Source: an uncultured bacterium
GTDB taxonomy: Bacteria > JAGOEH01
DNA length: 58,679 nucleotides
Direction of reading: 5' to 3'
Assembly: GCA_964632485.1 (NCBI GenBank)
Contig: CAZWDO010000003.1
Location: 62,001-120,679, forward strand
Below, piece after piece: positions 16,921 to 32,086 of the stretch; the stretch's first letter is position 1, and each line of letters begins with the position of its first letter. The notes below the pieces were generated by a model. That model was given only the letters and a program-made list of their open reading frames with translations, ran no database searches and had not been told where the DNA came from. A program made the translations under genes and the position numbers.

Positions 16921-17091
16921 ATGAAGTTAGTAAAAATTAATATCGAAAATAGGGACATAGTTTATATTACTGAGCATGTTATATTCCCTTAGAAGGATAA
17001 TGGCCTATTATTATTCAATACCAGAAACAACAACCTTATGGCGATCTGTGAAACTGAAAGAGATTTCAAAGAGGGGGTCATTGATGGTTAG
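16921..17091 (+). pseudogene. Interrupted PqqD/RRE-like (RiPP recognition element) gene remnant
   Basis: Strong RBS GGAGGAG, then ATG 16921. Reads MKLVKINIENRDIVYITEHVIFP*KDNGLLLFNTRNNNLMAICETERDFKEGVIDG*, with TAG at 16990 and 17089. This fits the PqqD pattern v.r..dg.lLfn..t.....lnet...iw...DG. Confidence 0.55.
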
Positions 17092-17157
17092 CGGTATTGA
17101 AGAAAAAACGATGATGAAAAAATAACTTAATTATAAATTAAATTAGGAGAAATTAAG

Positions 17158-17955
17158 ATGAGTGTCAAAAAAAGCTACAATCCACCGGAAATATTTAGTT
17201 TTAATATGCTGTCCAGCCAAACCCTCGGTCAGACATCCTGCGCTGACGGCAGCTCAACCGTCAACTGCCTTGCCGGTTATAATACTGCCGGCGCTTGTAA
17301 TACCGGACCTTCTGCCGTTAATGTCTGCAATTCGGGAAATCAGGCATCCGGGTACTGTTATAATGGGGGAAGCGCCGGATTTGATTGCTTGCCCGGTACG
17401 AATGCCGGATTTCGGTGTAATGCCGGAGGTAATCCTGCTGATAGAACTGGATGCCTGGGAGGCAGCAGTACTAGTTCTCCATGTCTTGGAGGATCTTCCC
17501 CTACGAATACTTATCGTTGCAATGCAGGAGGTAATCCCAGTATTCCAACATGCGCCAATGGAAATTTTCCTGATAGTTATGCCTGCGCGGTAGGGGATGA
17601 CGCTGAACGGGAACCGACTTGCACCGGTGGAAACAATCCGGAAAGTGGCCCGTGCAATTCGGGTAACACAGCAACTGGAGCGCTCGGATGTCAAAACGGA
17701 TCTACTCCTGTGGGACAACAGTGCGCCCATGGTGAGGATCTTTGTACGCCCGGAGGCTCTGACTCCAGCGAACATGAATGCAGTAACGGTAATTTTGCGG
17801 GTCCCCAGGAATGCTCCGCAGGGGGTAATCCGGAATCAAACTCATGCATTAACGGTTTTGGAGAAGAAGGCTGTCAAAACGGCTCCTATCCGGCGGATTA
17901 TAATTGTGATAATGGTGGCAGCGATGATGCTTGTATTTCTGGATCTTCAACATAA
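17158..17955 (+). CDS. Cys/Gly-rich repeat protein A, putative giant RiPP precursor (YxxP leader + 23 CxxG repeats)
   Basis: AGGAG RBS. Leader KKSYNPPEIFSF..LS.Q..GQT; all 23 Cys are followed by Gly at +3; no signal peptide. Paralogue at 31289-32086. Confidence 0.8.
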   Translation: MSVKKSYNPPEIFSFNMLSSQTLGQTSCADGSSTVNCLAGYNTAGACNTGPSAVNVCNSGNQASGYCYNGGSAGFDCLPGTNAGFRCNAGGNPADRTGCLGGSSTSSPCLGGSSPTNTYRCNAGGNPSIPTCANGNFPDSYACAVGDDAEREPTCTGGNNPESGPCNSGNTATGALGCQNGSTPVGQQCAHGEDLCTPGGSDSSEHECSNGNFAGPQECSAGGNPESNSCINGFGEEGCQNGSYPADYNCDNGGSDDACISGSST

Positions 17956-17970: not shown

Positions 17971-18987
17971 ATGCTTAATTTTATCAGGCGCTTTTGCGGC
18001 CGATCGCAAACCAGCTCTGTGGTGTTGGATTTTAACGGTTTTAAAATCAAGCTTTGTCTTATTACTAAGCATCAATTAAAACCAAAATATCATTCCTTTA
18101 TCCATCCCTCTGGCATCAGCAGCGATATAGTCATCGATTGCCGTCAATTATCTCCCGGAACTTCTGAGGCATGCCATGATCTACAATTGAATTCCTATCT
18201 TAAAAATTATTATTTCCACTTCCGCGGTTCCTTCGCTGACCATGGAATAGATCAACAGGATATCAATTTGAAACGGATTGTTGATCCGGACTATTACCCC
18301 CTTTATAATCGCTTCTGCTGTCAGTTCCTCCACGGGTTAAACTGGCCGGATGAGTTGGTCATTCTCCCTCTATCCAATTATTGTATTTTATACTATCCTG
18401 CAGAAAAAAAAGGGATATATTCCTGGCGAAACCAATATCAAACTAATTTTATTATTTCAGAAAATCTTTTTTATTTAACGCTATCTCAATATCTGGCGAA
18501 GCAGAATGGCGTTTTTTTTCACGGCAGCGCCGTTTTGTATCGTAACCAGGCCTATTTGTTTCTGGCTGAATCAGGCGGAGGAAAAAGTACTATATTGAAC
18601 CTATGTAAAGAATGCCAATACTTTTCAGATGATGGTGTGGCTCTGATTAACCAGGACAATCAATTTAAGGTCCTGCCTACGCCTTTTAGTCATTTTTCTC
18701 ATTCCTCCTCTTCGCAAGTCACGACCCCCCATTTAATCCAATCAATATTTATTCTGAAAAAAAATACTTTTAACTCGATTGAACCGGTTAGCAGAATGGA
18801 GGCTTTACCGATGATGCTACATCATCTCCATTATTACTTTTTCATGCCTCCCAGCCTATCGCGTAACGTTTTCGAAACGTGTTATCAAATCATTTCCAAG
18901 GTTCCTGTTCATTACCTGAATTTTCATATCCGCGATGATTCTGTTTTTGAAGATATTTACCGTTTTTTGAATACGGTGAATCCATGA
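17971..18987 (+). CDS. HPr-kinase-related P-loop protein (ScmC/lasso-kinase-like)
   Basis: FFHGSAV...LFLAESGGGKST...FSDDG...PTPF: His motif, Walker A and the DD pair of the HprK C-terminal domain. Confidence 0.8.
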   Translation: MLNFIRRFCGRSQTSSVVLDFNGFKIKLCLITKHQLKPKYHSFIHPSGISSDIVIDCRQLSPGTSEACHDLQLNSYLKNYYFHFRGSFADHGIDQQDINLKRIVDPDYYPLYNRFCCQFLHGLNWPDELVILPLSNYCILYYPAEKKGIYSWRNQYQTNFIISENLFYLTLSQYLAKQNGVFFHGSAVLYRNQAYLFLAESGGGKSTILNLCKECQYFSDDGVALINQDNQFKVLPTPFSHFSHSSSSQVTTPHLIQSIFILKKNTFNSIEPVSRMEALPMMLHHLHYYFFMPPSLSRNVFETCYQIISKVPVHYLNFHIRDDSVFEDIYRFLNTVNP

Positions 18988-19026: not shown

Positions 19027-21795
19027 CTATTGATGTTTACATACTGCAATCAGATAATCACTCTCAGTATTATTTTTTTTATTTAGCGGTGTGATGTTAC
19101 GATCAATCTGACCATAAAGCGCATAATCAAACCTTCCTTCCAACAGTTGGACAAACTCTTCCAAATTTAATTCTTTGACATGATGGGGATTGCTGCTTGC
19201 GCCTTTTTTTCGGTTTGGGGTCGAAATGATTGCCGTTCCATTCGGCTTGAGTATGTTTTTAATTATCTGTATAAACCATTCCTGATCATATAAATGCTCA
19301 ATTATTTCAAAAGCGATGACTCCATCAAATTGTTCAGAATAAGGGTACTCAAAAACGTCTCCCTGCTCAAACTTCAATATTGAAGTCTGATAGTTTTCAC
19401 GGGCATGATAGACCGCTTCCTTATTTTTATCCAATCCAAATCCGGAAGTAATGGATTTTTGTAACACATATAATCCATAGCCTGATCCAGAGCCAAGATC
19501 GATGAGATTTCCTTTCAGAAATGGTTTAGCAAAAAGATAACGGGCGACATGCTCCTTAATTACTTGACCAAAACAGAATCGATCAAGCTTGGGCGCGATG
19601 CGTTCCGGATAGAACCTGTTGCGATATATCTTCAACAGCCAGTTATCGCTGGTTTCAAAATCAATCACTTCTTTTTTATAAAAATATTTTAGTTTCCAAC
19701 CGTTTTGGTTGATTATATCCGTATCCCAGAACAGATCAAATATTTCCTGCAAGATGACCGGGGATAATTCCGGATTGATAATAGGAAAAAAGTTTCCATT
19801 CAATTCTTCATAATCACAGCTCCGAAAAAAATTTCGGTAATTATTATACTCTTCAGTCTGAGGAATTGGAGTGAAGATCATCAATGTTGCAGTCCCACCC
19901 AGCTTATGAGCAAAAATAATGGAATCGATAATCTCCTCCACAGTCTGTTCAGGAAGTCCGATGATAATATAGAATAAATATCTTAATCGATACTTTTTCA
20001 ATATATTCACCTGTTCGAAAATTTTGGTCATTTTGGCCGGCTTATGAAAGCGGTGATAATAAACATGGTATGAAGCGCTCTCCAAAGGTATAAAAAAACC
20101 TTCCAACTGATTGATCTTGAAAAAATGCTGAAAAAAATCATCGGTAAGCTTATCAATCTGAAACCCGTAAGAGCCATCGATGCTAACCGGATACTGATTA
20201 TCAATTAAATAATGAAGGAATTTCATCAGATTGTTTTTAGCCAGCATCAAATTGCTATCCCAAACCATGAATTCCCTGATCCCTAACTGATAATAGTATT
20301 GAAACTCATTTATAATCTTTTCATAAGAATAGAAGATCAACTGGTTTTCAACTTTTGGCACCGCGCAGTAACTGCACTGATTCGGACAGCCTTTGATAAA
20401 CCTCATAATTGCCCTATCAGGCAGATAGTCTAACAATTGCATCAGCGGATAATAATTATGAGCGTCCTCAAACTCTCCACAATGCGCATGATCGCATTCG
20501 GGGAAGCTGAATCCATCGGGAATCAGGATTGCCGCCGGCCCGCCGATCGTTACCCGGCACTGAGGAAACATCATTTTAATGATCCGGGCAATTTTTTTAA
20601 TATTGTAAATATGATATGTAAATGTAGCCGTTATCATCACTTCATCAGGAATATCATTCCTTGATTTCAAGTCATTCAGCATTTTTCTGAATCCACTGTA
20701 AGGCAATCCGTAATGATAAATCGGTTTTTCTAAATTTTCCAGTTTTTTCTGTCCTAATTTCACAGCGTACCCATAATAGTATGGCATAAAATCATAAAAA
20801 TATACATCATGTCCCTGAATCAATAAATAATGTGCAATTCTAAGCAATCCAGTCGGAATATTTCTTCCAATGGAAGTGGACATATACTTCCAATACTCAG
20901 GCGTATCTCTTACGGGAGGATTAATTAGCAGGTATTTTCGGGGTTCCTTTTTCTGTTTGGATTCAAAGAAAAAATATCCGCTGTTCTTGATCCGCAAATC
21001 GGGAAGATTCAGTTTATGATAGTTCAATTCATCGAAAATTCCTTGCCTGATAGAGGGATGATGACGCCATTTTTCTTTCAGGCGAACTAAATTTTTAATA
21101 CACTGAGAAACCCTTCTCTCGCTTTGAAACGATACCCCATTGATATGAGTGATGTATATATTTTTGCTGATTCCAGTTTCAAATCCGAATTCTTTTGCTC
21201 GCCAGCAGAAATCGACATCCTCAAAGTACCCATACCCAAAATCCGGATCAAATCCACCTATCAAATCCGTCACCTGTTTTCTGATCATCATACAGAAACC
21301 AAATATAAAATCACATTTTTGGATCGCCTGAAGCGTCGGTATCCCGACAATGAATTTGTTGAATGCATTTACATCTTTCTGAGTGATTTTTTCTCCAAGG
21401 TTTACATATCCCGAATAATTAAAAAAAGGGATATTCGTCAATGGACCCAAAACTCCCAGTTTGTCGTCGCTTCTTATGGCATTTAGCATTAATTCCAGCC
21501 ATTGGGGCGCTAATGCAATATCATTATTAAGTATGACTTTATAATCTGCATCGCTAAATTGTAACCCGCGGTTCACGCTGTATATAAACCCGCGATTGAT
21601 GCGATTGGTAATTAATTTAACATGGAGAGTATCCCGCATATCGTTGAATCCGTCAGGAAATGGTACATTACTGCAGTCATTGATCATAATAACCCGATAA
21701 TTCGGGTATTGGGTATATTCTCTTATCTTTTTCAACAAACGCAGTGTCAAAGTCAAATGATTAAAAAAAGGAATAATTATATCTACACTTTCCAT
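19027..21795 (-). CDS. Three-enzyme fusion: GT2 glycosyltransferase + B12-binding radical SAM + class I SAM methyltransferase
   Basis: N-terminus: DIIIPFFN, INDCS, LNND, GFCMMI, YFEDVDFCWRA. Middle: LLINPP..PTGLLRIA..IGGPAA, KGCPNQCSYC, YIIIGLP, FTPIPQT. C-terminus: EHVARY, DLGSGSGYG, FEIIEHL, STPN, NPHH..E. Confidence 0.88.
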   Translation of the reverse strand: MESVDIIIPFFNHLTLTLRLLKKIREYTQYPNYRVIMINDCSNVPFPDGFNDMRDTLHVKLITNRINRGFIYSVNRGLQFSDADYKVILNNDIALAPQWLELMLNAIRSDDKLGVLGPLTNIPFFNYSGYVNLGEKITQKDVNAFNKFIVGIPTLQAIQKCDFIFGFCMMIRKQVTDLIGGFDPDFGYGYFEDVDFCWRAKEFGFETGISKNIYITHINGVSFQSERRVSQCIKNLVRLKEKWRHHPSIRQGIFDELNYHKLNLPDLRIKNSGYFFFESKQKKEPRKYLLINPPVRDTPEYWKYMSTSIGRNIPTGLLRIAHYLLIQGHDVYFYDFMPYYYGYAVKLGQKKLENLEKPIYHYGLPYSGFRKMLNDLKSRNDIPDEVMITATFTYHIYNIKKIARIIKMMFPQCRVTIGGPAAILIPDGFSFPECDHAHCGEFEDAHNYYPLMQLLDYLPDRAIMRFIKGCPNQCSYCAVPKVENQLIFYSYEKIINEFQYYYQLGIREFMVWDSNLMLAKNNLMKFLHYLIDNQYPVSIDGSYGFQIDKLTDDFFQHFFKINQLEGFFIPLESASYHVYYHRFHKPAKMTKIFEQVNILKKYRLRYLFYIIIGLPEQTVEEIIDSIIFAHKLGGTATLMIFTPIPQTEEYNNYRNFFRSCDYEELNGNFFPIINPELSPVILQEIFDLFWDTDIINQNGWKLKYFYKKEVIDFETSDNWLLKIYRNRFYPERIAPKLDRFCFGQVIKEHVARYLFAKPFLKGNLIDLGSGSGYGLYVLQKSITSGFGLDKNKEAVYHARENYQTSILKFEQGDVFEYPYSEQFDGVIAFEIIEHLYDQEWFIQIIKNILKPNGTAIISTPNRKKGASSNPHHVKELNLEEFVQLLEGRFDYALYGQIDRNITPLNKKNNTESDYLIAVCKHQ

Positions 21796-21820
21796 TTAAT
21801 CCTCTTTGGAGTGAATTGGT

Positions 21821-22705
21821 TTATGATCGACTGTTATTCGCCGGGGGCGCTTCTTTTATTACACTCCCGTACGATGGGGAGTTGCAACTGTTAAACCATT
21901 GTTTCAGAAGGTAATTCAATAAAAATGAATAAGGATTGTTCTTTATTTGACTGATCAGTCCGATCACTTTTGACCGGAAAGAATTCTCAACCTTATGCCA
22001 GATGGGAGTATCGCTCAGTAGGTGAAGATGGAAATTAATGATTGGCTTTTTCTCAAGATATAATCCATCATCATGAGAATCGATCCGATTGATCAGGGGA
22101 TATTTCCAGGCTCCGATATTGCAAGTATCAGGGAATACAGTATATTGATACTGGCCGGTATTGAGCACAATCTCCAGTGGTTTTTGATCTACAAAATATT
22201 TGCGTTCGTTTATGATTTTCCCCCAGTCCTCCACAAACTTCATATTCCTGACTAACACCATACCGCTATTATACTTGCCGACATAATCCAATGTTTTAAC
22301 CTTAAGAATGGAGAAATGGCCGGTTTGATCCGAAACCATGACATCATAGTGGCTTGAAAGAAACTCATTAAAAATGGATTGGACCGAATATAAAAACAAC
22401 AGATCGCAGTCAAGTAAAAAAGCATATCCGTTCTGACGGATTGATTCCATGCAAACTGTTATTTTATGCGATACAATCCGGAGGAAGTTATCCTGTTTTT
22501 CGAGTTTAAGGTGATGACCATCCGAGCAATCGATAATTGGGATAGTCCTGATATTTGGACAGAAAGAGAGTCTTTCAGCAGAAAAAAAATCCGTCGCCAC
22601 AATCCATTCGCAGGGCTGGAATAATTCGAGGCTGGTTTTCATCAACATGAACTCATTAACCGTGCGTTGCGTACATACACACGTAAAAACGATGGCTTTA
22701 TGCAT
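21821..22705 (-). CDS. GT-A fold nucleotide-diphospho-sugar transferase (GT77/GT8-like)
   Basis: K...C...I, LLDCDLLF (DxD), YNSGMV, FVDQKPL, CNIGAW and FHLH. Confidence 0.75.
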   Translation of the reverse strand: MHKAIVFTCVCTQRTVNEFMLMKTSLELFQPCEWIVATDFFSAERLSFCPNIRTIPIIDCSDGHHLKLEKQDNFLRIVSHKITVCMESIRQNGYAFLLDCDLLFLYSVQSIFNEFLSSHYDVMVSDQTGHFSILKVKTLDYVGKYNSGMVLVRNMKFVEDWGKIINERKYFVDQKPLEIVLNTGQYQYTVFPDTCNIGAWKYPLINRIDSHDDGLYLEKKPIINFHLHLLSDTPIWHKVENSFRSKVIGLISQIKNNPYSFLLNYLLKQWFNSCNSPSYGSVIKEAPPANNSRS

Positions 22706-23831
22706 CTGAATCCCCAGAAGATTGAACGTGATTGAATAGTACTGAAGTCAATGGATTGAGGAAACAAAGCGCCTGACATTCGAGTTGTTCCAGCTTTTCC
22801 AGTAAAGGAGGAAATACATTGCGATAATCATAACAGCGGGAAACCAAGATGTTTTTTTCACCCATTTCCCGGGCTGGTTCCTGATGATCCATGAACCAAA
22901 CCAGTGATGATACCAGTTCTGCCATATCCACCTCATCGTTCCGAACAGAAACCAAATACCCGTTATCGCCATCCCTGATCAGTTCATTCAAAGCCTGCCA
23001 ATCGGTAGTGATCACAGGTAATCCGGACGCCATGGCTTCGATCACAACACGTCCGAATGTCTCGCCCTCAAAACTTGAGAGATGAACCAGAATATCAGAC
23101 TGTTTAAAAATAGCAAATTTCAATTGCGGTTGATCGATCAAATCGCCCCACCAGCGGACATTTGTCGATACCCCCCGCATCGAAATCAATCGGATAATCG
23201 ACAGATAATATTCTAATTTCTCTGGCAGATTGGAAATAATATGAAGCTGCCATTTTTTATTTTTAAACGCTTGCTGAATAGCCGGAATAATCCGGTGCAG
23301 ATGCCGGTAGTTCTCCAGACGGCTGCAAAAAACAATCTGGAAAACATGTTGATTGCCCCCGGACCAGGGGATAATTTGACGTATCATTTCAGAATCAATC
23401 GGAATCGGGAAATTAATGGATTGAAGTCCGGGAGCAAGCTCAGCCATACGGTCAGCCGTATAATGGCTGAAAGCCAGTAATAAATCTTTATTACAGATCA
23501 ATCCGGCGATTGAAATCCATCGGTGCTTCCAAGGTTCTATAATAAATGGAAAGAGAATGAACCCTATATCCAGATTGGATGCATAACGATAGGAAAAGAA
23601 ATCAAAAAGGATGAACACATCATTAAAAAAAATAAACCGAATTTCCTTTTTGACGACATCGTCAAACCAAATTTTAAGATTGGTTTTTCGTGGACTATAC
23701 TTCAGAGGGATCATTTCTGCATACATGGAAAAATATTGTAACAGTTCGGTAATCGTAATTTTATGGCTGACATTTGAAAAACGCTGGATATCAAAATAAG
23801 CAATTTTCAGTTTGGGTGAAGTCTTAATCAT
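22698..23831 (-). CDS. Glycosyltransferase family 4 (GT-B)
   Basis: ETFGRVVIEAMASGLPVITT...ELIRDGDNGYLV (EX7E motif). Confidence 0.9.
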   Translation of the reverse strand: MIKTSPKLKIAYFDIQRFSNVSHKITITELLQYFSMYAEMIPLKYSPRKTNLKIWFDDVVKKEIRFIFFNDVFILFDFFSYRYASNLDIGFILFPFIIEPWKHRWISIAGLICNKDLLLAFSHYTADRMAELAPGLQSINFPIPIDSEMIRQIIPWSGGNQHVFQIVFCSRLENYRHLHRIIPAIQQAFKNKKWQLHIISNLPEKLEYYLSIIRLISMRGVSTNVRWWGDLIDQPQLKFAIFKQSDILVHLSSFEGETFGRVVIEAMASGLPVITTDWQALNELIRDGDNGYLVSVRNDEVDMAELVSSLVWFMDHQEPAREMGEKNILVSRCYDYRNVFPPLLEKLEQLECQALCFLNPLTSVLFNHVQSSGDSDA

Positions 23832-25006
23832 AACAAACCAACCCGGTGAATAAACGACAGAAAATTCTTTTCAAGTATCCCGCGCCATTTTAACCAGTTC
23901 TGACGGGAGATTTGGCATGATCTCTCATAATACTCCGGTTCATGCAGTAATCGTCGTAACCGAAAAGAATAGGCCTGAATAACCTGTTCGGGGGCGCAGT
24001 TTTGAATATCAACCAGATTCTGATCATCCGGAATAATTTCCGGAATACCGCCAATTCTGTTCGCCAGAATCGGAATTGAATATGACATTGCTTCAAAGAT
24101 GACCCGGGGACATGCATCTTTGACAATGGAAGGAACCAATAAAATCCGGGTTCGAGAATAAATACGATAGATCCTGGGTGTTGAATTGATAAAAACCAGA
24201 TTCGGGTTGAGGGGGCGATTCAGTTTGTTGAAGAATGTTTTTTTTCCTGAAACAGCCACAAATATTTTTTCGCGGAACAAGCAGGACAATAGAAAAAAAA
24301 GATACCCTCCTTTTTGAGGCAAAAAATTGATCAATGTGATCCATTCTTTGGCGCTTGGTAAACAATCAGGAGTTTTGGTATCCACGATTGGATAAAGAAC
24401 AAAAGAATTGATTCCATACGCCTGTTTTAATTCTGTTTGAAGAAAAACGCTGCTGACAGAAACAGGCACTCTTGCGAGCGCCGCTATCAATTCCATTTTA
24501 TATGGAAATGAAAACTGAAACTCAATCGGTTCCATCGATCGGATAAAATGAAAAACCGGATAATCTCTAGCGGCTTCCATGGAAAACAGATCATATTGAG
24601 TTGTAAAAACCAGTCTTGGGACCCATTGATCAATATACCGGCGCATGAAATCCACTAACTCACTCTTGATCTCGGGCGCCTGCTGGGAGTATAGCATACC
24701 AATCGGAAAGGGAGCGCGGATGAACATAAACCACAACCGATTGCGTTGAAATGTCATTATATCTTCCTGAATCAGAAATTCCGAGACATCCGGATCAGCG
24801 GTAATCTGTCTCTCTATTTTATTCCAATTACAATTTTTATCCCAAAAATGCGCAACGGCGCATCGGTCATAATATTGCTGAATTGACTCTAATAGCGAAA
24901 TCAAAGAGAGAGTTCCACCATCGTTAAAATGAATATTAAAGTAACCTGTAGATAAACGAATAGCAGAATGTTTGAAAAGAGGTGAAATAGCGCAGCTTTT
25001 CTTCAA
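23828..25006 (-). CDS. Glycosyltransferase family 4 (GT-B)
   Basis: KGG, TRILLVPSIVKDACPRVIFEAMSYSIPILANRIGGIPE. TTG start after GGAG. Confidence 0.85.
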   Translation of the reverse strand: MKKSCAISPLFKHSAIRLSTGYFNIHFNDGGTLSLISLLESIQQYYDRCAVAHFWDKNCNWNKIERQITADPDVSEFLIQEDIMTFQRNRLWFMFIRAPFPIGMLYSQQAPEIKSELVDFMRRYIDQWVPRLVFTTQYDLFSMEAARDYPVFHFIRSMEPIEFQFSFPYKMELIAALARVPVSVSSVFLQTELKQAYGINSFVLYPIVDTKTPDCLPSAKEWITLINFLPQKGGYLFFLLSCLFREKIFVAVSGKKTFFNKLNRPLNPNLVFINSTPRIYRIYSRTRILLVPSIVKDACPRVIFEAMSYSIPILANRIGGIPEIIPDDQNLVDIQNCAPEQVIQAYSFRLRRLLHEPEYYERSCQISRQNWLKWRGILEKNFLSFIHRVGLL

Positions 25007-30327: not shown

Positions 30328-31278
30328 TTAACGACCACAATAGGAATCAATCTTATCGAAAATAGTAGAATCGGTTTGGGAAAAATAGAGGTTATAAAAA
30401 TTGGTTTCACGGATTAAGTCGAGCAAGGTGTCCAATAATTGCATGGTTAAAGAGGCCGGAAAATAGCGTGAAAAATGATGGTACTCTTTGGCGATTTTTG
30501 GGAGGAGTTGCAAACCAGGTGAAAATTTTTCTATTTTAAGTTCTTTGCTCTGATGAATAAAGAAGAAATGTTTCAGCGGCAAGTCGGGAAGCAAATAATG
30601 GCGGGCTTGATAGCCATACTGATAAAATGGAGATGGTGAAACATAAAAACCATCTTCTTTTTTGATGATAGCGATTGTATCGTCGCTATAGCACTGTTTG
30701 TGTGGATTCAATCGGGTTAGTGTGCTCTTGCCCTGGTTTGAATGTCCAAGGAACGCAACTATTTCTCCGTAATGTTCCAGTCCGGATCCATGGAGCAGTA
30801 ATCCCTTATTACCGATTAAGACGACACTCCATAATAGGATGAACAGATTGATATCCAATACTATTTCTTGTGGGGAATTGGGCTTACAAAACAGAAACGC
30901 GGTCAAATGGTCCGGGAAAATTAGTATGGTATAAGTTACATTTCCATACGAAAATCCGTCAGCGCTATCGAGTTGAAATTGGGGGTGGCTTTTTTGAATA
31001 AAAGAGTTTATGAGCTCTTTTTGGATTTGCAAATTTAACTGTTCCTCCCCGGAATAAAAGGATGGGCTTGAGGAGTTTCTGTTTTCATCAGAGTGCAAAG
31101 TGTCGGCGCCGTTCAAGTCAGCTGTTGGGTACGGGTGGCAGTATAAATTGAACGGGCTACGAGTTTCATCGACTGATGTTATGATATAATCTTTAATTTT
31201 TGCGGGTATTACAATTTTTTTCGCGGTTTCCGCAATGATTTTTAATGGGCGAAAAGGGAGTTGGACATAGATGCGCAT
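30328..31278 (-). CDS. HPr-kinase-related P-loop protein (paralogue of 17971-18987)
   Basis: LLHGSGL...AFLGHSNQGKST...YSDDT...PSPF. Start moved to ATG 31278, 10 nt after the precursor B stop. Confidence 0.8.
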   Translation of the reverse strand: MRIYVQLPFRPLKIIAETAKKIVIPAKIKDYIITSVDETRSPFNLYCHPYPTADLNGADTLHSDENRNSSSPSFYSGEEQLNLQIQKELINSFIQKSHPQFQLDSADGFSYGNVTYTILIFPDHLTAFLFCKPNSPQEIVLDINLFILLWSVVLIGNKGLLLHGSGLEHYGEIVAFLGHSNQGKSTLTRLNPHKQCYSDDTIAIIKKEDGFYVSPSPFYQYGYQARHYLLPDLPLKHFFFIHQSKELKIEKFSPGLQLLPKIAKEYHHFSRYFPASLTMQLLDTLLDLIRETNFYNLYFSQTDSTIFDKIDSYCGR

Positions 31279-31288
31279 TGAAAACGAT

Positions 31289-32086
31289 TTAAAGAGCGTA
31301 GGCGCCGGACGCGCAGTTTTCAATTGGCGCTTGACCCTGCCGGCACCCGGAAAACGAGGGAAAAGCTCCAGTGCCGCAGCCGGAATCGGCATTGCTACCT
31401 AATTCGCAATTGACATTGAGCGCTTGGTTTCCTTCCGCGCAAGCCGACTGGATTTCAAAAATGTCCGGGGATTGCATGAGAAAACCGGCGGTTGTGCCAG
31501 TAGCGCATGTATCATTCGGGACCGTGCCATTATTGCAAGTTCCGGCGCGTGCGCCAATACCGGAATTGCATTGATCCCCACGCGCTAAATTTCCATTATT
31601 GCAATCCGTATTAACATTGCCTCTGGCGGAATTTCCATTGTTGCAGGCCCGATCGGCAGATCCCCCCGATAAACAATCATTATTGTCAGCGACTGACCCA
31701 TTAATACAATCCGCTGCAGGTAGAGAGGTATTGTTGCCTGTAGCGCAACTGGTTGCTGTATAGGATCCGGTCGGATTACAAGCTGCATTGGCGTATCCAC
31801 CTGTACCGCATTCATTTGCTGCATAACTGCCGTATACATGACAGGCATTGCCCGCTTCATTGCCAAAAGTTTCGCAGCGGTTGCCGGCGATGTTGCCTGC
31901 TTCACAACGATTATCGGCAATTCCCCCATTTGGATTGCAACTTCCTGTTCCTGTAGGAATACTGCCATTTGGGCAATCAGCCGTGGCGACATTCCCGGTA
32001 TTGCAATCTCCGGTAGTCTGTCCGTTGACCTGATAACTTAAATAATCAAAACTAAAAATTTCCGGTGAAATATAGTTTCGTTTCAT
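31289..32086 (-). CDS. Cys/Gly-rich repeat protein B, putative giant RiPP precursor (YxxP leader + 21 Cxx(x)G repeats)
   Basis: AGGGGG RBS before ATG 32086. Leader KRNYISPEIFSF..LS.Q..GQT, then 17 CxxG and 4 CxxxG units; no signal peptide. Confidence 0.8.
   Translation of the reverse strand: MKRNYISPEIFSFDYLSYQVNGQTTGDCNTGNVATADCPNGSIPTGTGSCNPNGGIADNRCEAGNIAGNRCETFGNEAGNACHVYGSYAANECGTGGYANAACNPTGSYTATSCATGNNTSLPAADCINGSVADNNDCLSGGSADRACNNGNSARGNVNTDCNNGNLARGDQCNSGIGARAGTCNNGTVPNDTCATGTTAGFLMQSPDIFEIQSACAEGNQALNVNCELGSNADSGCGTGAFPSFSGCRQGQAPIENCASGAYAL

What the first reader, a model, noticed from the sequence alone, without database searches (positions are those of the whole stretch)
17158..17955. 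Precursor A: invariant Cys-x-x-Gly register repeated 23 times
Seen: every Cys has Gly at +3, with repeat lengths of 7-12 aa, mostly 10-12 (CADG, CLAG, CNTG, CNSG...CISG). Ala or Pro is often at +6, and RCNAGGNP and CLGGSS each occur twice, indicating growth by internal duplication. The C-terminal half turns acidic. Inference: this is either an iterated enzyme recognition motif (Cys-to-backbone thioether, S-glycosylation or metal-binding modification) or a beta-roll/solenoid with a Cys ladder, like GxxA beta-roll or insect antifreeze repeats. There is no Sec signal, so disulfides are unlikely unless a dedicated exporter is used.
Basis: partly seen in the sequence, partly recalled or inferred. 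Interest (0 to 1): 0.75.

Follow-up and report, generated by a model that had tools for sequence, protein, structure and literature searches.

The report
Giant cysteine-repeat radical-SAM precursor protein
This gene encodes a protein-sized version (23 cysteine-glycine units instead of the usual 3 to 9) of a catalogued bacterial peptide precursor of unknown chemistry, which radical-SAM enzymes encoded elsewhere in the genome likely staple unit by unit and a neighbouring kinase likely phosphorylates.

Summary
In detail: a 265-aa ORF with 23 Cys, all with Gly at +3. It is conserved under selection. The orthologue in relative G001 keeps 20 of 20 aligned Cys and 20 of 20 Gly+3 but only 49 of 125 other core residues; dN/dS is about 0.09.

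It is an oversized ScmA-type precursor of the SynChlorMet cassette. In G001 the orthologue lies in an intact PqqD-PqqD-ScmE-ScmF-precursor-ScmC operon. Here only a broken scmD remnant stays upstream, and intact scmD/E/F lie on another contig. The genome holds six such giants, each beside its own ScmC kinase. CxxG precursors occur at 62 of 79 ScmF loci.

The unit C-x-x-G-x-x-A/P is anchored to its own Cys and followed by a variable linker, which favours an enzyme motif over a solenoid. Best guess, not shown: Cys-to-Gly(+3) thioether rings plus phosphorylation near the leader. My paper searches found no study of this cassette; CrpA/CrpC and LPP are the nearest tested systems. The scan has reported this family before (25 notes, four on sibling genes in this genome). 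New variant of a known kind.

The parts
17158..17955 (+). Giant ScmA-type precursor A, 265 aa, 23 C-x-x-G-x-x-(A/P) units
   Evidence: a profile built only from 55 precursors of other ScmF loci hits it at E 2.4e-19
17158..17229 (+). Leader, aa 1-24: Y-x-x-P-x-I-x-x-F-x-x-L ... G; predicted RRE-binding sequence. Cleavage site not determined.
   Evidence: Y, P, F and L invariant in 11 of 11 giants with a complete N-terminus; the YxxP motif binds discrete RREs (PMC13381572, passages)
17233..17235 (+). Thr26 (Y+19), candidate phosphorylation site (inferred)
   Evidence: hydroxyl residue at Y+19 in 11 of 11 giants (10 Thr, 1 Ser); LppK phosphorylates Ser3 of the LPP core
17470..17571 (+). Three extra units (about aa 105-138) missing from the G001 orthologue; likely internal duplication
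17145..17149 (+). AGGAG ribosome-binding site
   Evidence: sequence
16921..17091 (+). Broken remnant of scmD (PqqD/RRE gene): in-frame stops at 16990-16992 and 17089-17091, 3' half missing
   Evidence: 45% identical over 51 aa to G001 ScmD; whole-genome tblastn E 1e-8; one DNA contig of run X1, possibly the source of this DNA, has the same letters
17971..18987 (+). ScmC-type P-loop (HPr-kinase-like) protein, 338 aa, with His184, Lys205, Asp220, Asp221
   Evidence: ESM Atlas feature score 0.96 to PF27840 ScmC clusters, TM 0.68/0.82; TIGR04249 16 bits, under the cut-off of 125; motif
31289..32086 (-). Paralogous giant precursor B, 265 aa, 17 of 21 Cys with Gly at +3
30328..31278 (-). ScmC-type kinase paired with precursor B
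19027..25006 (-). Convergent four-gene sugar block (GT2 + B12-radical-SAM + methyltransferase fusion, unannotated 294-aa protein, two GT4). Same arrangement in G001, but not a core gene set of the cassette; role in this system unproven.

Best explanation
The gene encodes an oversized ScmA-type precursor of a SynChlorMet cassette, whose 23 C-x-x-G-x-x-(A/P) units are likely each modified by the radical-SAM/SPASM enzymes ScmE/ScmF encoded on another contig, most likely as a thioether from each Cys to the Gly three residues on, while the adjacent ScmC kinase is predicted to phosphorylate it near the leader junction. Shown by sequence: the gene, its selection, its family, the adjacent kinase, the intact cassette in a relative and the scmD remnant here. 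Inferred steps: (1) the discrete RRE ScmD binds the YxxP leader and delivers the chain; (2) ScmF and/or ScmE abstract an H atom and close one small Cys-S to Gly-C-alpha (sactionine) ring per unit, giving a string of up to 23 four-residue rings on flexible linkers; (3) ScmC adds phosphate(s), Thr26 being the best candidate; (4) since no cassette peptidase or exporter was found beside any of the six giants, the product may keep its leader and stay in the cytoplasm. The biological role is not established; a metal-binding or scaffold role for the acidic, stapled chain is a guess. Odds: substrate of the Scm enzymes 0.88; Cys is what the radical-SAM enzymes modify 0.7; Cys-to-Gly(+3) thioether specifically 0.45; Thr26 as the phosphosite 0.25.
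For: Synteny: in G001 the 61%-identical orthologue lies directly behind PqqD-like, ScmD, ScmE-like and ScmF-like genes and before a 53%-identical ScmC. The best NCBIfam hits of these enzymes are ScmE and ScmF. In G000 a broken scmD sits 66 nt before the precursor, and one intact PqqD-like/ScmD/ScmE/ScmF block (75% and 68% identical to G001 ScmE and ScmF) lies on contig C2. G002 shows the same split: three giants, enzymes on a fourth contig. Family: a profile of the six giants found 123 short peptides (64-159 aa) of the same build among the best 150 hits. Of 55 hits scanned, 19 matched TIGR04252 ScmA at E up to 0.1, one over the curated cut-off. A profile made only from 55 precursors of other ScmF loci retrieves exactly the six giants from the genome. 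At 79 ScmF loci, 62 hold such a precursor and 62 a ScmC-like gene; among the 53 loci with at least 3 kb downstream, 46 and 47. Motif: Gly at +3 in 274 of 284 Cys of ScmF-locus precursors and 246 of 257 in 12 giants. Where spacing is not 10, Ala/Pro stays at +6 from the preceding Cys (87 of 120) rather than -4 from the next (7 of 120). ScmE and ScmF both keep a seven-Cys SPASM pattern, as does the thioether-forming CrpC, which acts on a 29-kDa protein with C-X-X-Q/D repeats (PMC13692751). Cys-to-Gly sactionines exist, and Gly can accept only at C-alpha (StsA, PMC10288494). The kinase keeps the His-Lys-Asp-Asp set described for lasso-peptide kinases (PMC9266682). The other recurrent genes at ScmF loci (NTP_transf_5 33 of 79, ABC transporter 30, S26 peptidase 25, PqqD 50) are the core set of the LPP family, whose kinase phosphorylates a Ser just after the leader (PMC13381572).
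Against: No chemistry was tested or found in print. The protein does not match TIGR04252 at all, and ScmE/F/C score under their curated cut-offs (219/400, 317/400, 16/125). Action in trans is inferred. The seven-Cys SPASM pattern is not diagnostic for thioether formation (recalled: MftC and PqqE are similar), and WgkB, MftC and AhbD models also score high. By my approximate reading of the six catalytic-proximity positions (ScmF about W,T,E,S,G,I), neither enzyme matches CteB (F,F,T,S,H,Q) or StsB (Y,T,I,S,K,L). Known Cys-Gly sactionines are hairpin-nested, not i to i+3, and the CrpC acceptors were narrowed only to short motifs. Why two radical-SAM enzymes are needed is unexplained. The kinase target is unclear: a C-terminal Ser is not conserved (1 of 55 short precursors), only 17 of 55 short precursors have a [GA]-x-[ST] before the first Cys, and LppK did not accept Thr. 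Kinase and precursor similarities do not correlate across 9 pairs (Spearman -0.23, p 0.85; distances near saturation). One G002 giant has no kinase within the 1.5 kb flanks seen.
Confidence: 0.55

Rival explanations
1. Same cassette and substrate, but different radical chemistry: the thioether goes to another residue (for example the +6 Ala, giving a lanthionine-like link), or the two enzymes do two different things (a crosslink plus epimerisation, backbone cleavage or Cys conversion), with Gly+3 needed only for the turn that fits the active site.
For: Two enzymes are kept together (ScmE at 58 of 79 ScmF loci) with different active-site residues. A second position, +6 Ala/Pro, is conserved at about 67-77%. 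Some units shift Gly to +4 (7 of 257 Cys in giants, 34 of 822 in short hits, often with Pro at +2). The proximity residues match no thioether group I could read.
Against: Gly+3 is far more constant (96%) than any other candidate acceptor, and +6 is often Pro. No invariant Ser, Thr, Asp or aromatic residue exists in the unit.
Confidence: 0.3
2. The giants have left the radical-SAM pathway: they are free-thiol, metallothionein-like metal or sulfur stores that are only phosphorylated by their own kinase, and ScmE/F act on something else.
For: Each of the six giants in G000 keeps a kinase but none keeps radical-SAM Scm genes in cis. scmD at this locus is broken. The chain is acidic, with 23 thiols and no signal peptide.
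Against: The RRE-type leader is the best-conserved part of all giants. G000 and G002 keep intact scmD/E/F, while no short ScmA was found in G000, so the giants are the only candidate substrates seen. In G001 the giant sits inside the intact operon.
Confidence: 0.08
3. A self-folding beta-solenoid with a Cys ladder (antifreeze-like or beta-roll structural protein), with C, G and A/P as the three inward-pointing residues of a ten-residue coil.
For: Period of about 10 with small residues at 0, +3 and +6; low complexity, rich in Gly, Ser and Asn.
Against: The period varies from 7 to 12 within one chain, and whole units come and go between orthologues. AlphaFold2 gave mean pLDDT 34.5 (whole protein, 6 rows) and 53.7 (aa 1-95, 125 rows; repeats under 50) with no strand pattern; the Atlas model has pLDDT 0.42 and no structural match over TM 0.31. 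No signal peptide. Most family members have only 3-9 units. These low-confidence models cannot exclude a fold that forms after modification.
Confidence: 0.04
4. The Cys residues are S-glycosylated by the neighbouring GT2-domain protein, giving a heavily glycosylated protein.
For: A GT2/GT4 block abuts the locus in G000 and G001, and another giant (C8) also lies among glycosyltransferases.
Against: No glycosyltransferase cluster is among the genes shared by most ScmF loci. The GT2 domain's 12 NCBIfam matches include no SunS-type model. LPP clusters also tend to sit in polysaccharide loci. Four of the six G000 giants have no GT2/GT4 beside them in the stretches seen.
Confidence: 0.03

Closest known systems
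SynChlorMet (Scm) cassette, NCBIfam TIGR04248-TIGR04252 (ScmD, ScmC, ScmE, ScmF, precursor ScmA); Pfam PF27840 ScmC
   Same: YxxP leader plus CxxG decamer repeats; adjacent ScmC; ScmD, ScmE and ScmF best hits, contiguous in G001. Model names for ScmA, C, E and F come; the accession TIGR04248 for ScmD and the family's history are recalled or taken from scan notes.
   Different: 23 units and 265 aa, against 3-9 units at other ScmF loci. Under all curated cut-offs. Six dispersed precursor-kinase pairs are served by one enzyme block in trans. No cassette S26 peptidase found in the genome, and no ABC exporter or nucleotidyltransferase beside any of the six. Extra Tat-like PqqD-domain gene in the enzyme block.
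CrpA/CrpC of Methanococcus voltae (TIGR04463; PMC13692751)
   Same: Protein-sized (about 29 kDa) Cys-repeat substrate with a leader-like N-terminus; seven-Cys SPASM radical-SAM enzyme; thioethers in which Cys precedes the acceptor; AlphaFold beta-helix judged unreliable by the authors.
   Different: Motif C-X-X-Q/D in 17-residue repeats, ranthionine links, one enzyme with a fused RRE, no kinase reported. Here the motif is C-x-x-G, with two enzymes, discrete RREs and a kinase.
Linear polyphosphorylated peptides (LPP; LppA/K/B/S/D/N, PMC13381572) and paeninodin/pseudomycoidin kinases (PadeK, ThcoK, PsmK; PMC9266682)
   Same: YxxP leader, discrete RRE, HprK-like kinase with His-Lys-Asp-Asp; at other ScmF loci also SpI/S26 peptidase, NTP transferase and ABC exporter.
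   Different: LPPs have no radical-SAM enzymes or Cys repeats in their core set, and their leader continues VLxHQxIxFETxxS with phospho-Ser3. Lasso kinases need a C-terminal Ser, which is not conserved here.
StsA/StsB and BlaA Cys-Gly sactipeptides (PMC10288494)
   Same: Cys-to-Gly C-alpha thioethers made by an MftC-like SPASM enzyme with a discrete RRE.
   Different: Three (or two) nested hairpin links in a short peptide, not tandem i to i+3 units; StsB's proximity residues differ from those of ScmE/F.

Membership tests
ScmA (TIGR04252) | Score over the curated cut-off of 35 bits | tested here: not met
   no match at E up to 0.01; no match on any of the six giants in the genome-wide search
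ScmA (TIGR04252) | Homology to the precursors found at ScmE/ScmF loci (YxxP leader, CxxG decamers) | tested here: met
   profile of 55 precursors from other ScmF loci hits it at E 2.4e-19 and only the six giants in the genome; a homologue found with the giants' profile, P0037, passes the TIGR04252 cut-off
SynChlorMet cassette | ScmC-family gene linked to the precursor | tested here: met
   adjacent gene, PF27840 ScmC by Atlas features 0.96 and structure; TIGR04249 only 16 of 125 bits
SynChlorMet cassette | Two radical-SAM/SPASM genes (ScmE, ScmF) and a PqqD-like gene in the same cluster | tested here: inconclusive
   met in the orthologous G001 locus; in G000 only a broken scmD in cis, intact block on C2; best hits ScmE/ScmF but under the 400-bit cut-offs
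Sactipeptide | Cys-S to C-alpha thioether | not testable with these tools
   needs mass spectrometry with desulfurisation
Sactipeptide | Maturase with catalytic-proximity residues of a known sacti- or ranthisynthase group | tested here: inconclusive
   approximate positions match neither CteB nor StsB; the paper's full residue table (supplementary figures) could not be read
Crp (TIGR04463) cysteine-rich protein system | C-X-X-Q/D repeats and an RRE-fused single maturase | tested here: not met
   +3 is Gly in 23 of 23; enzymes are 368-382 aa with separate RREs, and TIGR04463 is not among their matches at E up to 1e-20
LPP (linear polyphosphorylated peptides) | Leader YxxPxVLxHQxIxFETxxS with core Ser3 | tested here: not met
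   only YxxPx[IV] shared; Y+18 is Gln here, hydroxyl residue at Y+19
LPP (linear polyphosphorylated peptides) | SpI-type peptidase, HprK kinase, NTP transferase and exporter in the cluster | tested here: not met
   kinase only; no cassette-type S26 found in G000, one LepB-like S26; NTP_transf_5 genes lie on other contigs
Cys-ladder beta-solenoid (insect antifreeze / beta-roll type) | Constant repeat period and secretion signal | tested here: not met
   period 7-12, no signal-like stretch; the defining features are recalled
Cys-ladder beta-solenoid (insect antifreeze / beta-roll type) | Solenoid fold | tested here: inconclusive
   pLDDT 34.5 and 53.7, no strands

The most novel reading that the evidence does not exclude
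In this small lineage a short RiPP precursor has grown into a family of 200-380-residue proteins that are converted into chains of 15-30 tandem four-residue Cys-to-Gly sactionine rings, with a phosphorylated N-terminal region. That would be a ring topology and a number of radical-SAM crosslinks per chain beyond the systems I read about, and a thioether-stapled protein class made without disulfides in anaerobes.
Probability: 0.3. Interest if true: 0.75.

Novelty: new variant of a known kind. Interest (0 to 1): 0.48.

Why it matters
This locus ties the giant CxxG proteins to that cassette directly: intact operon in a relative, scmD remnant here. It also offers a 23-fold repeated substrate whose mass shift would reveal the chemistry in one experiment. 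If the enzymes staple any C-x-x-G-x-x-A/P unit behind a short leader along 240 residues, they would be useful for multiple peptide and protein cyclisation. The family itself is catalogued and this scan has met it many times, which limits surprise.

Tried and rejected
Searches that found nothing:
- Pfam and NCBIfam: no family for the precursor.
- Word-index phmmer: none of 3,738 candidates scored; low complexity defeats it.
- ESM Atlas for the precursor: best feature score 0.81, unnamed 102-119-aa clusters, a lead only.
- AlphaFold2 twice: no confident fold, so no fold search was run.
- Complex prediction of ScmD with the leader: no verdict (0.53 against a control at 0.42); used neither for nor against.
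- Kinase-precursor co-divergence: no signal.
- PDB sequence search with the kinase alignment: only P-loop-level matches, HPr kinases at E about 0.2.
- Metagenome scan with the ScmF alignment: 14 loci, no new giant.

Results I set aside:
- The A5-versus-A2 profile comparison is circular.
- A CxxG-rich frame on C34 reads like a translated DNA repeat array and was dropped.
- Five regex hits at ScmF loci had no leader call and were dropped before profile building.
- 27 of the 150 listed HMM hits (the giants and long or unrelated repeat proteins) were left out of the 123-peptide counts.
- The 62-of-79 count uses a profile built from 50 of these loci, so it is partly circular; 50 of 79 is the regex-plus-leader count. 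The 79 include G001 and G002 and are the best of 587 confirmed stretches.

Expression: metatranscriptome run X4 holds one 133-nt piece identical to 17639-17771, the only piece on 19.9 kb. It is a single short adapter-flanked contig and cannot show level or strand, so it is a weak hint only. Promoter and terminator scans were at chance level.

Literature searches that found nothing: 'SynChlorMet'; TIGR04248-04252 accessions; ScmE/ScmF, only unrelated acronyms among 20 listed of 418; radical SAM + SPASM + Syntrophobacter + Chlorobium; HPr kinase + radical SAM + RiPP + nucleotidyltransferase + S26 + PqqD; CxxG + radical SAM + thioether + RiPP; Delongbacteria terms, 0 occurrences in the 10 listed; supplements of PMC13692751 and PMC10288494. 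Most subscription journals are not in the library, a TIGRFAM paper I tried by a recalled id was not held, and supplementary figures could not be read, so absence from print is not established.

Full report
Observation. The ORF at 17158-17955 (+) encodes 265 aa behind an AGGAG site. All 23 Cys have Gly at +3. The spacings are 7-12, with 18 of 22 at 10-12, and Ala or Pro stands at +6 in 15 of 23 units. The repeated octamer and hexamer, the acidic second half (19 D/E against 1 K/R) and the lack of a signal-like stretch are as described. Shuffling the core 100,000 times never gave more than 14 CxxG. The pattern is real.

It is a functional gene. The orthologue in G001 (same family; its contig also came back as L020, titled Candidatus Delongbacteria) is 61% identical. 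Over the aligned core it keeps 20 of 20 Cys, 20 of 20 Gly+3, 15 of 19 residues at +6, 15 of 19 other Gly and 49 of 125 other residues. Twelve of 20 Cys codons and 14 of 20 Gly+3 codons differ silently; pS is 0.745, pN 0.26 and dN/dS about 0.09, with dS near saturation. The orthologue lacks three units, about aa 105-138, which hold the second copies of both repeated words, so growth by duplication fits. Direct evidence of transcription is weak: one 133-nt identical piece in a metatranscriptome, the only one on 19.9 kb.

Context in this genome. The next gene (17971-18987) is a ScmC-type P-loop protein: ESM Atlas feature score 0.96 and a structural match to PF27840 clusters, with the His-Lys-Asp-Asp set reported for lasso-peptide kinases (PMC9266682, passages seen). 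The genome has six proteins of this build (214-377 aa, 16-30 CxxG) and exactly six such kinase genes, each next to one precursor. A second pair lies in this window at 30328-32086 (-). Just upstream of precursor A, 16921-17091 is a broken scmD: 45% identical over 51 aa to G001 ScmD, with in-frame stops. No scmE or scmF remnant was found between 14600 and 17200. One intact block of PqqD-like, ScmD, ScmE-like and ScmF-like genes lies on contig C2. In G001 the same four genes stand directly before the orthologue and its kinase, followed by the same convergent sugar block. In G002 (same order) three giants, two with a kinase, again lie apart from the enzyme block. The simplest history is an ancestral operon at this locus whose enzyme genes were lost here and kept on C2; this is inferred from two genomes.

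Family. A profile of the six giants run over 1.84 billion representatives gave 155 hits at E up to 0.001. Among the 150 listed, 123 are short peptides (64-159 aa, median 93) with a YxxP leader and 2-11 CxxG units. Of 55 hits scanned, 19 matched TIGR04252 ScmA at E up to 0.1, and one passed the cut-off. The giants themselves do not match that model. For the 53 loci with at least 3 kb downstream the numbers are 46 and 47, and precursor and kinase frames lie within 300 nt in 46 of 57 loci with both. Other recurrent genes are ScmE (58), PqqD (50), NTP_transf_5 (33), an ABC transporter (30) and an S26 peptidase (25). A profile made without the G001 sequence, from 55 such precursors, retrieves exactly the six giants from 76,824 frames of G000, precursor A at E 2.4e-19. 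Outside G001 these precursors have 3-9 units, and 12 further metagenome loci gave none over 170 aa. The giant form is therefore rare: 12 sequences seen, 10 from these three genomes and two of unknown context.

What the motif says. Gly follows at +3 in 274 of 284 Cys at ScmF loci, 758 of 822 in the short hits and 246 of 257 in giants. Where the spacing departs from 10, Ala/Pro stays six residues after the preceding Cys (87 of 120 in giants) and not four before the next (7 of 120). The unit is thus C-x-x-G-x-x-(A/P) plus a free linker, read from its own Cys. A solenoid would want a constant period; AlphaFold2 gave none with 6 or 125 aligned rows (mean pLDDT 34.5 and 53.7), though such models prove little. 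No Ser, Thr, Asp or aromatic position is invariant in the unit, which argues against lanthionine formation by phosphorylation and elimination and against Asp-type ranthionines.

Mechanism. ScmD resembles the discrete lasso-type RREs TbiB1 and TfuB1, which bind YxxP leaders (PMC13381572, passages); Y, P, F and L are invariant in 11 of 11 giant leaders. ScmE and ScmF each keep seven SPASM cysteines. In CrpC this pattern is proposed to leave one iron free for a substrate Cys, and CrpC makes thioethers in a 29-kDa protein with C-X-X-Q/D repeats, Cys preceding the acceptor (PMC13692751: abstract, first part of Results, the crosslink section, Discussion and supplement passages seen). With Gly at +3 the link could only be to C-alpha, as in StsA (PMC10288494: passages and one section seen). 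I therefore commit to one Cys-to-Gly(+3) sactionine per unit, at about 0.45. Against it: the proximity residues of ScmE/F match neither CteB nor StsB by my approximate reading, known Cys-Gly links are nested hairpins, and the second enzyme is unexplained. The kinase most likely works like LppK, which polyphosphorylates Ser3 just behind a YxxP leader in clusters with the same accessory genes (PMC13381572, three Results sections seen). A hydroxyl residue stands at Y+19 in 11 of 11 giants (Thr26 here), one place from the LPP site. No cassette peptidase was found in G000 and no exporter lies beside the six precursors, so the fate and role of the product are open.

Comparison and novelty. It works like an ScmA and is homologous to ScmA, but fails the curated model and differs in size and gene layout; it is neither a Crp nor an LPP member. 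My searches found no paper on the cassette, within the limits of an open-access library and unreadable supplementary figures. The scan's own notes list 25 findings of this family in at least 15 genomes and four on sibling giants in this genome; I had reached the same reading before opening them, and they are not independent support. What this locus adds is the physical link to the enzymes. Verdict: real, a new variant of a catalogued but chemically open system; interest 0.48.

Noticed in passing
window:16921-17091 (+): Broken scmD (PqqD/RRE) gene with two in-frame stops, marking the former enzyme operon.
   Followed up: yes
window:30328-32086 (-): Second giant precursor (17 of 21 CxxG) with its own ScmC kinase, inserted between a TonB-dependent receptor and a large T9SS-type secreted protein gene.
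   Followed up: partly
window:19027-25006 (-): Four-gene sugar block led by a 922-aa fusion of GT2, B12-binding radical SAM and methyltransferase domains, with an unannotated 294-aa protein and two GT4; same order in G001.
   Followed up: partly
L129:2751-3164 (-) (G000:C2:174548-174964): PqqD-domain protein with a twin-arginine-like hydrophobic N-terminus heads the scmD/E/F block in G000, G001 and G002; a possibly membrane-anchored or exported second RRE.
   Followed up: no
P0056 (514 aa): A giant Cys-repeat protein (33 Cys, mix of CxxG and CxxxG) fused behind its own PqqD-like domain: a precursor carrying its RRE in cis.
   Followed up: no
L121, L122, L126, L127: Metagenome ScmF loci with up to seven precursors of 108-170 aa that add CC pairs and extra Cys to the CxxG units.
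   Followed up: no
L002:6493-10088 (-): Three short radical-SAM/SPASM-twitch genes and a glycosyltransferase-like gene follow the C8 precursor-kinase pair; their best models are not ScmE/F.
   Followed up: partly
G000:C4:200673-204138 and C5:133123-135861: Two other PqqD + NTP_transf_5 loci (C5 also with an HPr-kinase-like gene) among glycosyltransferases; their nucleotidyltransferases could act in trans.
   Followed up: no
window:15744-15785: Run of 42 N (assembly gap) between the LacI-type regulator and the bile-acid-symporter-like gene.
   Followed up: no
window:6091-14592 (-): Phosphate/anion uptake-like block: phosphate transporter and regulator-like genes, porin, DASS symporter, CYTH-like and lamin-tail-domain proteins (names partly, partly from sequence by recall).
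   Followed up: no
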